This document shows, in pieces, positions 15,001-17,453 of a stretch of DNA of 64,000 bases. The position numbers were made by a program. Positions within the stretch are counted from its first letter, which is position 1; each line of letters starts with the position of its first letter. The DNA is taken from the NCBI RefSeq assembly GCF_057098645.1, contig NZ_CM169472.1. One strand, 5' to 3'.

Positions 15001-17453
15001 CCAGAGGATATATCAAAACGCTGGGAGTAATTTGCTTCGCAGCTATTGTACTGGCCTTTGTTTTACCTATAGCAGGCTTCAGCGGAAGCTGGGGAGTACT
15101 CGCAACATTACTCTGCTTCGCCACACCGTTCCTGGCTGTCGCCATCGCTTTTACCCCCTTCGGCAAAAAAGTTCGGGATTTGATGCGTGATGTCAACCAG
15201 CCATCACGCCATACAAGAAGCAATTCTTCCTCCCACTATTCATCATCGTCATCCTCTTCATTCAACAATGACAATTTCAGCGGTGGTGGCGGTTCATCTG
15301 GTGGCGGTGGCGCTTCCGGGCGCTGGTAACAAAAGGAATTGATATGCGTATTTTTCTCTTACTTCTGATGCTATGCGGTTTTCAGGTATTCGCTGAACAA
15401 TGGCCTTCAGTAACTGACTTAACCGGGACATTAACGACAGAAGAACAAACTGCTTTAACTCAACAATTACAGACTCTCGAGCAGCAAAACCACTTCCAGG
15501 TGGCCGTGTTGGTTACGCCGACCACAGGGGGCAAAAACATTAAACTTGCAGCCTCGCAGAGATACGGGGTATATCACTGGAAACCCGTTGGAGAGAAGCG
15601 ATATGGCGAAGGTATCTTAATTCTCGTCGTATGGCCGGAAGGGCTGGCGTCAATGAAGATTGGACATGGACTGGAACAGATGTTGCCGCCGGAACAAGCT
15701 GCGCAAATTGTTCGTTACCATATGCAGCCAGAATTCGAAAAAAACAATCTCTTTGCTGGATTAACGGGCGGAATTGAAAGCATCGCACAGTTTACCCATA
15801 TCAAAGCGAACCTTAGCCCTTTGGATGCTTTAGCCAATCATCTGTTTGCTAATCCGCAACGTTCGCTGCCATGTCTTGCCTGGACACTGCTGATGATCGT
15901 TGCCATCGTTGTCCTCTGGCGATTTGCCAGCCGCCCACGGCGTGGCATATGGATGATATCGATGATTACCCCTATGGTCTGGTTTTTCTCCTTTCAGGAC
16001 GATGTCATCATTCGGCGGGTGTCGATCGTTTGTTTTAGTTTATTGTTAGCAACAACCTGCAAGCAGCGTCTCGCGGTAGTTTTTAATTTGTGCCGCGTAT
16101 TTCCTATGATGCTGGCCCCAAAAAATAAAAACGCTAAAGTGAAAAAACAAAAGAAGACTCCGCAGGTTCGTGAATCAGGACGAAATTCATTGTTTGTCGT
16201 GATGCTGATAATTATTGTGGGATGGTGCCTGGTGTTCGCCAGTAATAAAGATATTGCATTCATCTCAACAATTATTGGGTTAATTGATCATTTTATCGGC
16301 CCAATAACCATTGCTGGCATCGTTCTGCTGATCATTGTGGCCAAATTTACTGGCAATCTTAAGTTGGGATCAGGAGAAAAAAGCAACAGGAAAACGGGGA
16401 ATCGTAATGCTCACTCTCGCTCTTCGTCGAGAAATTCTTTCCGCGGTGGTGGCGGTTCTTCAGGAGGCGGCGGTTCATCCGGCCGTTGGTGATCGTAATG
16501 CGCTTAATCTTTATTCTACTTGCTTTGTGGAGCCTTCCCGGGCTTGCCCAGCAAATTGCTGTGCCGGAGCTGCGCCAACAGGTGACCGATATTACTGGTA
16601 CGTTAAGCACTTCTGAACAACAATCACTGACACAGCAACTGCAGGATATTACACATAAAACACGGGCGCAGGTCGCTGTATTAGTAGTGCCGTCCACCGG
16701 AGACGATTCCATTGAACAATATGCTACAAGGGTTTTTGATAGCTGGAAACTGGGAGATAAGCAGAGAAACGATGGTATTTTACTTCTGGTTGCCAGGGAG
16801 GATCATGCTGTTCGTATTGAGGTTGGCTACGGGCTGGAAGGGGTGGTTACCGACCTGCAAGCGGCGAAAATTATCAGGGATATATTGATCCCTGCCTTCA
16901 AAAGTGATGACCTGATGGGTGGATTAACACTGGCAAGCGAAAATATCGGCGCGCTTCTGTTGAATGGTGAATTATCGGAAGACAAGGGGGATTATTACAG
17001 TATCAATCCTCCTATTCCATTATCGCTTGCTGTAATTATATTGCTGGCGGTACTTTCATATTTTATTGTTTTTACCGATCCGTCGAATTTACCCTGGATC
17101 ACTCTCACTGGCGCCATTTACGGGATGGTATTCCTCTATGTTGCCGAGCCAGGACCATGGACCAATTTAATCGTTGCCTGCGGTATGTTAACGCCTTTTG
17201 CGATCGTACCACTGGTTATTTTTTGGCTTATCGTCAATAAAAAGCTACGCGCCAAATACAAAAAACTCAGTAAAGAAAGAGCTTCAAGAAAAGGTTCTTC
17301 TTCATCCTCTTCCGGTAGAGGCTCAAGTGGCGGCGGGGTTAGCGGCGGGGGCGGTTCTTCTGGCGGTGGCGGCGCGTCCGGTCGCTGGTAACTCAACCAT
17401 AAAAAACGCCAGCCCGAAGGCTGGCATTTTTAAATCAGATAAAGTCAGACTTA

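What the first reader, a model, noticed from the sequence alone, without database searches (positions are those of the whole stretch)
15344..16492. Middle TPM paralog is strongly diverged with an extended membrane region and a Lys-rich linker
Compared with the flanking paralogs (about 297 aa each), this ORF is 382 aa. Its TPM core has substitutions in otherwise shared blocks (VAVLVTPTTGGKNIKL vs LVVLVVETTGDETIEQ / VAVLVVPSTGDDSIEQ), it carries additional hydrophobic segments, and it has a basic stretch KNKNAKVKKQKKTPQ. This pattern suggests sub- or neofunctionalisation (possibly a non-catalytic scaffold) rather than simple redundancy.
Basis: seen in the sequence. Interest (0 to 1): 0.4.

Follow-up and report, generated by a model that had tools for sequence, protein, structure and literature searches.

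The report
Divergent middle TPM membrane-protein paralog
The middle of three tandem TPM-domain genes in this E. coli lemA operon is a real, intact and selectively maintained gene that evolved rapidly after duplication, gaining extra membrane helices and a lysine-rich loop and changing several otherwise conserved residues; it is a specialised variant of a known but poorly understood family, not an artefact.

Summary
Window 15344-16492 (+) is an intact 382-aa ORF, the third gene of a lemA-TPM1-TPM2-TPM3 operon between queE and eno in E. coli.

**What the protein looks like**
- It has a signal peptide and a confidently modelled periplasmic TPM fold.
- It has about five predicted membrane helices, against about three in the 297-aa neighbours.
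- It has a disordered Lys-rich loop and the family's Gly-rich C-terminal tail.

**How it diverged**
- Its TPM domain scores 76 bits against Pfam, versus 140 and 131 for the neighbours.
- It sits on a very long branch inside the enterobacterial YgcG clade.
- It has fixed replacements at near-invariant family positions: E→K67, R→S103, E→K105, G→Q112, D→P116.

**Evidence that it is maintained**
- dN/dS is 0.2-0.3 for the whole gene and 0.10-0.21 for the TPM domain.
- It is intact in all 10 E. coli genomes sampled.
- It is present in 1114 of 5426 complete E. coli genomes.

**Distribution**
- The membrane module occurs only in Escherichia and in Klebsiella spallanzanii.
- The syntenic Klebsiella ortholog has deleted the TPM domain but keeps the rest, with dN/dS 0.33.

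Sub- or neofunctionalisation is supported. "Non-catalytic" cannot be tested, because the family has no agreed catalytic residues. Interest is modest: this is a new variant of a known kind.

The parts
13802..14422 (+). lemA: LemA-family protein, first gene of the operon. It has an N-terminal lipobox (LSGC). RefSeq uses the start at 13820 in most strains.
   Evidence: Pfam PF04011 E=8e-49. There is a sub-threshold 88-bit match to MamQ. dN/dS is 0.04-0.06, making it the most constrained gene of the operon.
14436..15329 (+). TPM1: canonical YgcG-type paralog of 297 aa, with signal peptide, TPM domain, about 3 TM segments and a Gly-rich tail.
   Evidence: Pfam PF04536 140 bits. It keeps 58 of 84 family-conserved columns. 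dN/dS is 0.14-0.17. It carries a nonsense mutation in O157:H7 and in L007.
15344..16492 (+). TPM2: the finding, a 382-aa divergent paralog. An AAGGA ribosome-binding site lies 7-8 nt upstream. The stop codon overlaps the GTG of TPM3 (GTGA).
   Evidence: RefSeq annotates the same CDS.
15344..15394 (+). Signal peptide, aa 1-17: MRIFLLLLMLCGFQVFA|EQ.
   Evidence: Read directly from the sequence. It is conserved in the Escherichia orthologs and in the Klebsiella TPM-less homolog.
15395..15823 (+). Periplasmic TPM-fold domain, aa 18-160, with fixed replacements K67, S103, K105, Q112 and P116.
   Evidence: Pfam 76 bits covering profile positions 1-124 of 125. AF2 pLDDT is about 90. Foldseek gives TM-score 0.84 and rmsd 2.2 A to BA41 (5ANP). 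Conserved-column table. dN/dS is 0.10-0.21.
15824..16363 (+). Extended membrane module, aa 161-340, with five predicted helices at 171-194, 200-216, 221-252, 280-299 and 305-335.
   Evidence: Hydropathy. AF2 secondary structure, pLDDT 50-84. Loop charges agree with the positive-inside rule. An exhaustive profile search finds the module only in Escherichia and the Klebsiella orthologs.
16109..16180 (+). Lys-rich loop, aa 256-279, predicted cytoplasmic and disordered. It contains KNKNAKVKKQKKTPQ at 16121-16165.
   Evidence: 7 Lys in 15 residues, reached by 9 of 20000 shuffles. Basic character is kept in all orthologs listed, with K+R 6-13 and D+E 0-3. AF2 pLDDT is below 50 for residues 264-278.
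16364..16489 (+). Basic, Ser-rich linker and family-wide Gly-rich C-terminal tail ...FRGGGGSSGGGGSSGRW, aa 341-382.
   Evidence: The only invariant columns in the 106-sequence family alignment are five Gly of this tail. All three paralogs and the Klebsiella TPM-less homolog share it.
16498..17391 (+). TPM3: canonical YgcG-type paralog of 297 aa. An alternative GTG start at 16489 overlaps the TPM2 stop codon.
   Evidence: Pfam 131 bits. It keeps 59 of 84 conserved columns. dN/dS is 0.13-0.15. It is absent from some E. albertii loci (L008).
17408..17425 (+). Intrinsic-terminator-like hairpin (7 pairs, 6 of them GC) followed by a T-run. It closes the four-gene operon ahead of the convergent eno gene.
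   Evidence: No comparably strong terminator lies between the four genes.

Best explanation
**What it is.** TPM2 is a functional, lineage-restricted and specialised subunit of the LemA/YgcG-type TPM membrane system.

**Evolutionary history (shown or inferred from sequence comparison).**
1. It arose by duplication of a canonical YgcG-type gene within Enterobacteriaceae.
2. It then went through a burst of change.
3. That burst remodelled a set of family-conserved polar residues on its periplasmic TPM domain: two Glu to Lys, one Arg to Ser and one Asp to Pro.
4. It enlarged the membrane anchor from about three to about five helices.
5. It introduced a polybasic loop predicted to face the cytoplasm.
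6. The gene has since been held by purifying selection.

**Proposed mechanism (inferred, not shown).**
- TPM2 works as a non-redundant, probably non-enzymatic partner of a canonical TPM paralog and LemA in the inner membrane.
- It always lies directly downstream of a canonical TPM paralog gene.
- Its membrane module, basic loop and Gly-rich tail provide anchoring or contacts with lipid or a cytoplasmic partner.
- Its altered TPM surface provides a paralog-specific periplasmic contact.
- In Klebsiella spallanzanii that periplasmic contact has been dispensed with altogether.
- The system as a whole most likely acts in assembly or maintenance of envelope and membrane complexes, as proposed for other TPM proteins.
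For: **Real, intact gene in an operon**
- Searches show the ORF, the matching RefSeq CDS, the ribosome-binding site and the terminator.

**TPM fold retained**
- Pfam E=2.6e-21.
- AF2 pLDDT is about 90 for the domain.
- Foldseek TM-score is 0.84 to BA41.

**Accelerated divergence**
- Mean distance to 93 generic homologs is 1.42-1.59 for the TPM2 clade, versus 0.82-1.04 for TPM1, TPM3, K-12 YgcG and the Klebsiella TPM.
- The clade is nested in the enterobacterial clade in 197 of 200 bootstraps.
- Near-invariant family residues are replaced in all four Escherichia TPM2 orthologs examined: K67, K105 and P116 are identical in all four, while S103 and Q112 vary between them.

**Purifying selection**
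- dN/dS is 0.20-0.30 for the gene, 0.10-0.21 for the TPM domain and 0.22-0.59 for the membrane part.
- The ORF is intact in 10 of 10 sampled E. coli genomes.
- It is a single chromosomal copy in 1114 of 5426 genomes.

**TPM-less ortholog**
- The syntenic K. spallanzanii gene keeps the signal peptide, membrane module, polybasic loop and tail, with dN/dS 0.33.

**Gene order**
- Every locus seen has an intact lemA.
- TPM2 or X always lies directly downstream of a canonical TPM gene. That upstream gene is nonsense-truncated in O157:H7 and L007, where TPM3 remains intact. So at least one intact canonical TPM gene accompanies TPM2 or X at every locus.

**Topology**
- Loop charges fit an N-out, C-in five-helix model.

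**Precedents for TPM proteins as accessory or assembly factors**
- Foldseek matches a chain of the mycobacterial CIII2CIV2 supercomplex. PMC8267372 identifies the TPM-fold supercomplex protein as Msmeg_4692 and reports the cbb3-oxidase factor CcoZ.
- Psb32/TLP18.3 at photosystem II.
- A chaperone-like role was proposed by comparative genomics of PSP systems.
Against: - No experiment bears on this protein, and the function of the LemA/TPM system itself is unknown.
- In Escherichia the TPM domain is more constrained than the membrane module. The domain therefore still matters there and could still be enzymatic.
- The hetero-oligomer idea rests only on gene order.
- The five-helix topology is a prediction. 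pLDDT is 50-84 in the membrane region, and it is based on hydropathy with no dedicated topology predictor.
- AF2 places the extreme C-terminus (residues 377-381) in a beta strand at moderate confidence. I could not inspect the model coordinates, and a docked tail might contradict a cytoplasmic location.
- The locus is absent from about 80% of E. coli genomes, so the function is dispensable.
Confidence: 0.55

Rival explanations
1. Neofunctionalised enzyme. TPM2 is still catalytic, as a phosphatase or nucleotidase like those reported for TLP18.3, BA42 and BA41. The replaced residues would then retune substrate or metal specificity rather than abolish activity.
For: - The fold is fully retained.
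- D25, L30, Q52, E111 and the G-x-G-L-E core are kept.
- The TPM domain has dN/dS 0.10-0.21, nearly as low as in the neighbours.
- R349 and E351 of the YgcG consensus are also absent from BA41 and 7TBR (alignments). They are therefore not universal requirements of the fold.
Against: - The Klebsiella ortholog has lost the whole domain and is still under purifying selection.
- Four charged near-invariant family positions changed together, two of them by charge reversal.
- Enzymatic activity of TPM domains is itself disputed.
Confidence: 0.2
2. Redundant copy drifting towards loss. The divergence would reflect relaxed constraint on a surplus paralog that is on its way to becoming a pseudogene.
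For: - dN/dS is about twice that of TPM1 and TPM3. In the membrane region it reaches 0.59 in one comparison.
- The TPM domain is deleted in Klebsiella.
- The locus is absent from about 80% of E. coli genomes.
- Many truncated or frameshifted variants exist in raw read assemblies.
Against: - dN/dS is well below 1 at dS up to 0.75 across Escherichia species.
- The ORF is intact in 10 of 10 complete E. coli genomes sampled by DNA similarity.
- Aligned lengths differ only by multiples of three in 28 of the 29 full-coverage hits. The one exception ends two bases short of the query, and its locus proved intact.
- Where one paralog is broken, it is TPM1, not TPM2.
- The replacements are fixed rather than scattered.
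Confidence: 0.1
3. Target of diversifying or balancing selection. Phages, colicins or contact-dependent toxins might use this inner-membrane protein for entry. That would explain the rapid change and the allele exchange.
For: - Synonymous divergence is centred on the middle gene. In E. albertii L006 versus L008, dS is 0.024 for LemA, 0.019 for TPM1 and 0.25 for TPM2.
- In Klebsiella L004 versus L005, dS is 0.023 for LemA and 0.38 for X.
- The queE-eno interval is a replacement hot spot with at least three locus types in E. coli.
- It lies next to CRISPR arrays.
Against: - No dN/dS above 1 was found in any segment of adequate size.
- There is no match to any PADLOC defence model.
- Mosaic dS is also explained by ordinary recombination.
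- There is no direct evidence of any interaction with phage or toxins.
Confidence: 0.1
4. Annotation or assembly artefact. The extra length would come from a wrong start or stop codon, or from fusion of two ORFs.
For: None found.
Against: - The same 1149-1155-bp CDS is present in 1102 complete genomes.
- The signal peptide sits at the annotated start, with a ribosome-binding site upstream.
- The family's C-terminal tail is in frame at the end.
- Orthologs of 378-382 aa exist in E. albertii and other Escherichia.
- The extra residues are internal insertions.
Confidence: 0.01

Closest known systems
Flanking paralogs TPM1 and TPM3, and E. coli K-12 YgcG (YgcG-family TPM domain proteins, Pfam PF04536)
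   Same: They share the signal peptide, periplasmic TPM domain, C-terminal membrane region and the FRGGGGSSGGGGASGRW-type tail. TPM1 and TPM3 lie in the same operon, and K-12 ygcG lies in the same chromosomal interval.
   Different: - TPM2 is 85 aa longer.
- It has about 5 rather than about 3 membrane helices, plus a polybasic loop.
- Its Pfam score is about half that of the neighbours.
- It has lost E→K67, R→S103, E→K105, G→Q112, D→P116 and the VPxL motif ahead of the domain.
- Its membrane module is not detectably similar to theirs.
BA41 of Bizionia argentinensis (PDB 5ANP). According to the title of Cerutti et al. [quoted passage not shown]
   Same: It is the best structural match: TM-score 0.84, rmsd 2.2 A, 22% identity. 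The deposited 277-aa chain also carries a Gly-rich C-terminal region.
   Different: BA41's chain is shorter than TPM2 (277 versus 382 aa). Activity has been reported for BA41 and none is known for TPM2.
Klebsiella spallanzanii 'hypothetical protein' WP_180349601.1 and relatives (P0027, P0030, P0121), called X here
   Same: It is the syntenic ortholog, lying as lemA-TPM-X between queE and eno. It shares the signal peptide, the first few residues of the domain, the membrane module (31% identity over 235 residues), a longer polybasic loop and the Gly-rich tail.
   Different: About 120 residues comprising the TPM domain are deleted. The protein is 265-270 aa and has no Pfam match.
TPM-domain accessory factors of membrane complexes: Psb32/TLP18.3 (photosystem II), Msmeg_4692 (mycobacterial CIII2CIV2 supercomplex), CcoZ (C. 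jejuni cbb3 oxidase)
   Same: They share the TPM fold on the non-cytoplasmic side of an energy-transducing membrane, held by a membrane anchor. They serve as the model for a structural or assembly role.
   Different: They are only distantly related (12-18% identity). They lack a LemA partner, the Gly-rich tail and the multi-helix module. No client complex is known for the E. coli proteins.

Membership tests
Pfam PF04536 TPM domain (TLP18.3/Psb32/MOLO-1) | Match to the family HMM above the gathering threshold over the full domain | tested here: met
   76.4 bits against a cut-off of 22.1, covering profile positions 1-124 of 125.
Pfam PF04536 TPM domain (TLP18.3/Psb32/MOLO-1) | TPM fold: a four-stranded sheet flanked by helices | tested here: met
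   The AF2 domain model has pLDDT about 90, with strands at 23-25, 53-58, 91-96 and 101-106 and the flanking helices. Foldseek matches 5ANP, 2KW7, 7TBR, 3PTJ, 4OA3, 9H70 and 8C7I at probability 1.00.
YgcG-family membrane TPM proteins | Architecture: signal peptide, TPM domain, C-terminal TM region and a Gly-rich tail ending in G-x-W | tested here: met
   All four elements are present. The tail GGGGSSGGGGSSGRW aligns with the only invariant columns of the 106-sequence family alignment.
YgcG-family membrane TPM proteins | Near-invariant residues of the domain, at least 94% conserved in 93 homologs: D257, Q284, E308, D345, R349, E351, G353, G355, L356, E357, G358, D362, P375, F377, G385 (alignment columns) | tested here: not met
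   D25, Q52, G107, G109, L110, E111, P129, F131 and G139 are kept. E→K67, D→E99, R→S103, E→K105, G→Q112 and D→P116 are replaced in the TPM2 orthologs, whereas TPM1, TPM3 and the Klebsiella TPM keep all of the listed residues. TPM2 is a divergent member, not a typical one.
Enzymatically active TPM 'phosphatase' | Measured phosphatase, ATPase or ADPase activity | not testable with these tools
   This needs biochemistry. The literature reports no consensus on TPM function.
Enzymatically active TPM 'phosphatase' | Metal site of LMTP1/Rhom172_1776 type: Asp in strand A, a backbone carbonyl at +5 and Glu at +10 | tested here: inconclusive
   D25 and L30 are present. Position +10 is Q35, with E34 at +9. 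TPM1 (E at +9, V at +10) and TPM3 (E at +9, Q at +10) show the same pattern, so this site does not distinguish the paralogs.
LemA-TPM gene cluster | Co-oriented and adjacent to a lemA (PF04011) gene with no intervening terminator | tested here: met
   lemA lies at 13802-14422. The intergenic gaps are 13 and 14 nt, followed by a 4-nt overlap. The only strong terminator is at 17408. The same order occurs in E. albertii, other Escherichia and Klebsiella.

The most novel reading that the evidence does not exclude
TPM2 and the Klebsiella protein X may define a small, young membrane-protein lineage. Its working core would be the multi-helix module, the polybasic cytoplasmic loop and the universally conserved Gly-rich/Trp tail, with the TPM domain optional. 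If so, the key activity of YgcG-type proteins, and perhaps of the whole LemA/TPM system, would lie in the membrane and tail rather than in the 'phosphatase' domain that names the family. The natural TPM-less allele would then be a ready-made separation-of-function mutant.
Probability: 0.25. Interest if true: 0.5.

Novelty: new variant of a known kind. Interest (0 to 1): 0.3.

Why it matters
**The open question.** TPM-domain proteins and LemA are very widespread, yet their function is unresolved. The competing views are phosphatase versus assembly or chaperone factor.

**What this locus offers.** It is a compact natural experiment in a tractable organism:
- two canonical paralogs;
- one remodelled paralog with charge-reversed conserved residues;
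- in a sister genus, the same gene with the TPM domain removed but still under selection.

Together these make it possible to test whether the TPM domain or the membrane/tail part carries the function, and whether the paralogs act as a hetero-complex.

**Limits.** The locus is dispensable, being absent from about 80% of E. coli including K-12, and this is a variant within an annotated family. The wider impact is therefore modest.

Tried and rejected
1. **AF2 on the shallow 7-sequence ortholog alignment.** This gave an unusable model with pLDDT 39. It was replaced by a 106-sequence alignment.
2. **Origin of the extra helices.** I found no significant self-similarity within the TPM2 membrane region (z about 1). 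Similarity to the TPM1 and TPM3 membrane regions is barely above shuffles, and TPM1 versus TPM3 gives only z = 1.8. Internal duplication versus insertion could not be resolved.
3. **Whether K-12 yqcG is a lemA remnant.** The sequences are unrelated, so this idea was dropped.
4. **NCBIfam.** There is no match for TPM2 or X, and only sub-threshold Psb32 and MamQ hits for the neighbours.
5. **PADLOC defence models.** No hits for any of the four proteins or for X.
6. **Literature.**
   - Nothing on ygcG function beyond listings.
   - LemA plus TPM appear together in only two versions of one transcriptomics paper.
   - The AtTLP18.3 structure paper is not held in the library. The BA42 and BA41 papers surfaced only as reference-list entries and I did not try to fetch them.
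   - I therefore could not map residues proposed by those authors.
7. **RefSeq 'partial pseudogene' flags on TPM1.** In four E. coli genomes the ORF is in fact intact (versus 36, 66). My initial impression that TPM1 is commonly broken was withdrawn. Real nonsense mutations were seen only in O157:H7 and in one other locus (L007).
8. **3D clustering of the replaced residues.** I could not inspect the coordinates of the AF2 model, so this was not tested.
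Full report
**Context.** The window is E. coli chromosome, 100% identical to strain C325 over the locus. The finding lies in the interval between queE and the convergent eno-pyrG-mazG genes. On the + strand this interval holds four closely packed genes:
- lemA, 13802-14422 (Pfam LemA, E=8e-49);
- TPM1, 14436-15329;
- TPM2, 15344-16492, which is the finding;
- TPM3, 16498-17391.

The gaps between them are 13 nt, 14 nt and a 4-nt GTGA overlap. The only strong terminator-like hairpin follows TPM3 at 17408-17425. This is therefore one operon.

**Checking the observation.**
- The neighbours are 297 aa with the starts RefSeq uses.
- The extra length is not a start or stop artefact. 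A signal peptide (MRIFLLLLMLCGFQVFA|EQ) follows an AAGGA ribosome-binding site. The family's C-terminal tail is in frame at the end. The additional residues are four internal insertions within the membrane region.
- RefSeq annotates the same CDS, and orthologs of 378-384 aa exist in E. albertii and other Escherichia.
- The Lys cluster (residues 260-274) holds 7 Lys in 15 residues. Only 9 of 20000 shuffles of the protein reach that density.

**How diverged is the TPM core?**
- Pfam scores are 76 bits for TPM2 against 140 and 131 for the neighbours.
- I took the 84 columns conserved in at least 60% of 93 generic YgcG-family homologs. TPM2 keeps 40 of them. TPM1, TPM3 and the Klebsiella TPM keep 58-60, and K-12 YgcG keeps 53.
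- Among positions at least 94% conserved in the family, TPM2 keeps D25, Q52, G107, G109, L110, E111, P129, F131 and G139.
- It has replaced E→K67, D→E99, R→S103, E→K105, G→Q112 and D→P116. It also lacks the VPxL motif ahead of the domain.
- K67, K105 and P116 are identical in all four divergent Escherichia orthologs examined.
- The domain still folds. AF2 with a 106-sequence alignment gives pLDDT about 90 across residues 21-150. Foldseek matches BA41 (TM-score 0.84, rmsd 2.2 A) and all other solved TPM domains.

**Evolutionary history.**
- In a neighbour-joining tree of 127 domain columns, the TPM2 orthologs are monophyletic in 200 of 200 bootstraps. They nest within the enterobacterial YgcG clade in 197 of 200, on a branch several times longer than those of TPM1, TPM3, K-12 YgcG or the Klebsiella TPM.
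- Mean corrected distance to the 93 generic homologs is 1.42-1.59 for TPM2, against 0.82-1.04 for the others.
- Present-day constraint is nevertheless clear. Nei-Gojobori dN/dS across Escherichia lineages is shown below.

| Gene | Whole gene | TPM domain | Membrane region |
|---|---|---|---|
| LemA | 0.04-0.06 | – | – |
| TPM1 | 0.14-0.17 | 0.10-0.15 | 0.08-0.14 |
| TPM3 | 0.13-0.15 | 0.09-0.11 | 0.14-0.19 |
| TPM2 | 0.20-0.30 | 0.10-0.21 | 0.22-0.59 |

- The domain and membrane figures for TPM1 and TPM3 come from the three lineage pairs, and those for TPM2 from the five pairs.
- The pattern is a post-duplication burst followed by purifying selection. The TPM domain remains well constrained and the membrane part is looser.
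- TPM2 occurs in 1114 of 5426 complete E. coli genomes, always as a single chromosomal copy.
- It has an intact reading frame in all 10 genomes I examined.
- TPM1 carries a nonsense mutation in O157:H7. It also does in one non-E. coli Escherichia locus (L007).

**The membrane module.**
- Hydropathy and the AF2 secondary structure give five helices at 171-194, 200-216, 221-252, 280-299 and 305-335. The neighbours have about three hydrophobic segments.
- The signal peptide puts the TPM domain in the periplasm. The loop charges then fit an N-out, C-in model. Predicted cytoplasmic segments carry 4, 12 and 10 Lys+Arg, and predicted periplasmic loops carry one each.
- The Lys-rich stretch lies in the second predicted cytoplasmic loop and is modelled as disordered. 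Its basic character, though not its sequence, is kept in all orthologs listed.
- This topology is inferred, not shown.
- A profile of the module (residues 157-343, tail excluded) was searched exhaustively against 1.84 billion representative proteins. It found only 10 proteins, all Escherichia TPM2, Klebsiella relatives or frameshift fragments.
- The module is not detectably related to the membrane regions of TPM1 or TPM3, and no internal duplication is detectable.
- Long multi-helix members do exist elsewhere in the family. Burkholderia members of 419-565 aa have about five hydrophobic peaks, and family lengths run from 236 to 565 aa. The extension is thus unusual in sequence but not in kind.

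**The Klebsiella ortholog.** This is the most informative result.
- Between queE and eno, K. spallanzanii has lemA, a canonical TPM gene (294 aa) and a third gene I call X (265-270 aa, annotated as hypothetical, no Pfam match).
- X shares several elements with TPM2: the signal peptide, the first residues of the domain (V-x-D..TLT..EQ), the whole membrane module, a longer polybasic loop and the FRGGGGSSGGGGASGRW tail.
- About 120 residues comprising the TPM domain are missing from X.
- Two X alleles differ at dN 0.12 and dS 0.38, giving dN/dS 0.33. The TPM-less gene is therefore maintained by selection.
- Some E. albertii have only lemA-TPM1-TPM2.
- In every locus seen, TPM2 or X follows lemA and a canonical TPM gene, and at least one canonical TPM paralog at the locus is intact.

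**Interpretation.**
- The suggestion of a 'non-catalytic scaffold' is plausible but unproven. The TPM family has no agreed catalytic residues or even an agreed function.
- The metal-site pattern seen in LMTP1 and 7TBR does not discriminate between the three paralogs.
- The TPM domain of TPM2 is still constrained in Escherichia.
- My best account (confidence about 0.55) is that TPM2 is a specialised, probably non-enzymatic partner subunit that works with LemA and a canonical TPM paralog in the inner membrane.
- Precedents for TPM domains as accessory or assembly factors come from the mycobacterial respiratory supercomplex, CcoZ, Psb32/TLP18.3 and comparative genomics of PSP systems.
- The rivals are a retuned enzyme (0.2), a drifting redundant copy (0.1), a target of diversifying selection (0.1) and an artefact (refuted).

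**Novelty and score.**
- The gene is already annotated as 'TPM domain-containing protein'.
- I found no description in the literature searched of several features: its architecture, its restriction to Escherichia and K. spallanzanii, its remodelled conserved residues and its TPM-less ortholog.
- It is a new variant of a known kind.
- Interest is modest (0.3). The locus is dispensable and the family's function is unknown. It does offer a clean natural separation-of-function series for testing what TPM domains do.

Noticed in passing
window 12426-12637 (degenerate copies at 11896 and 11945): A small CRISPR array lies between ygcE and queE. It has four type I-E-like repeats (CGGTTTATCCCCGCTGGCGCGGGGAACTC) at a 61-nt period. 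RefSeq annotates a CRISPR array at this position in other E. coli genomes.
   Followed up: partly
L012, L013, L014, L015 (RefSeq E. coli genomes), TPM1 gene: RefSeq/PGAP flags TPM1 as 'incomplete, missing C-terminus' (672 bp). In fact the ORF runs intact for 297-302 aa to the GGGGASGRW tail, so this looks like an annotation artefact (versus 36, 66).
   Followed up: yes
L001 (O157:H7 PA20) 3237-3911; L007 3584-3883: TPM1 carries a genuine in-frame nonsense mutation, truncating it to 224 aa in O157:H7 and to 99 aa in L007. TPM2 and TPM3 remain intact in both.
   Followed up: partly
L003 (K-12 DHB4) 3087-4113: K-12 has a different locus type: yqcG (46 aa, unrelated to LemA) plus a single ygcG allele that is only 31-47% identical to the three paralogs. 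In this record ygcG has an in-frame stop at codon 39. There is no lemA.
   Followed up: partly
C-termini of TPM1 (window 15282-15326), TPM2 (16445-16489) and TPM3 (17344-17388), and homologs P0034-P0120: The tail FRGGGGSSGGGGASGRW is the most conserved element of the whole YgcG family, shared by Burkholderia, Pseudomonas, Bordetella and E. coli. Five of its Gly are the only invariant columns in 106 sequences. Its function is unknown. AF2 puts TPM2 residues 377-381 in a beta strand at pLDDT about 76, and I could not see what it pairs with.
   Followed up: no
L006 versus L008 (E. albertii); L004 versus L005 (Klebsiella): Synonymous divergence is mosaic and peaks at the middle gene. In E. albertii dS is 0.024 for LemA, 0.019 for TPM1 and 0.25 for TPM2. 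In Klebsiella it is 0.023 for LemA, 0.14 for TPM and 0.38 for X. Within TPM2 (window versus L008) the TPM domain has dS 1.33 and the membrane part 0.24. This suggests allele exchange by recombination.
   Followed up: partly
window 13802-14422 (LemA): LemA has a lipobox (NLSGC, with Cys at residue 22 of the 206-aa ORF), which is conserved in Klebsiella. It is therefore probably a lipoprotein. It gives a sub-threshold 88-bit match to the magnetosome protein MamQ model NF040966, whose cut-off is 250.
   Followed up: no
L004 about 6850-8200: In K. spallanzanii a CRISPR array lies immediately downstream of the TPM-less gene X, in place of a third TPM gene. It shows up as repeated 'GLSPLARGT / FIPAGAGNT' translations. 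Another Klebsiella-type contig (L005) has an epimerase gene there instead.
   Followed up: no
L002 (E. coli STN0717-20) 4121-6040: A third E. coli locus type has lemA, a truncated TPM pseudogene and a 120-aa hypothetical gene. About 43% of the four-gene query matches it, at 87.6% identity.
   Followed up: no
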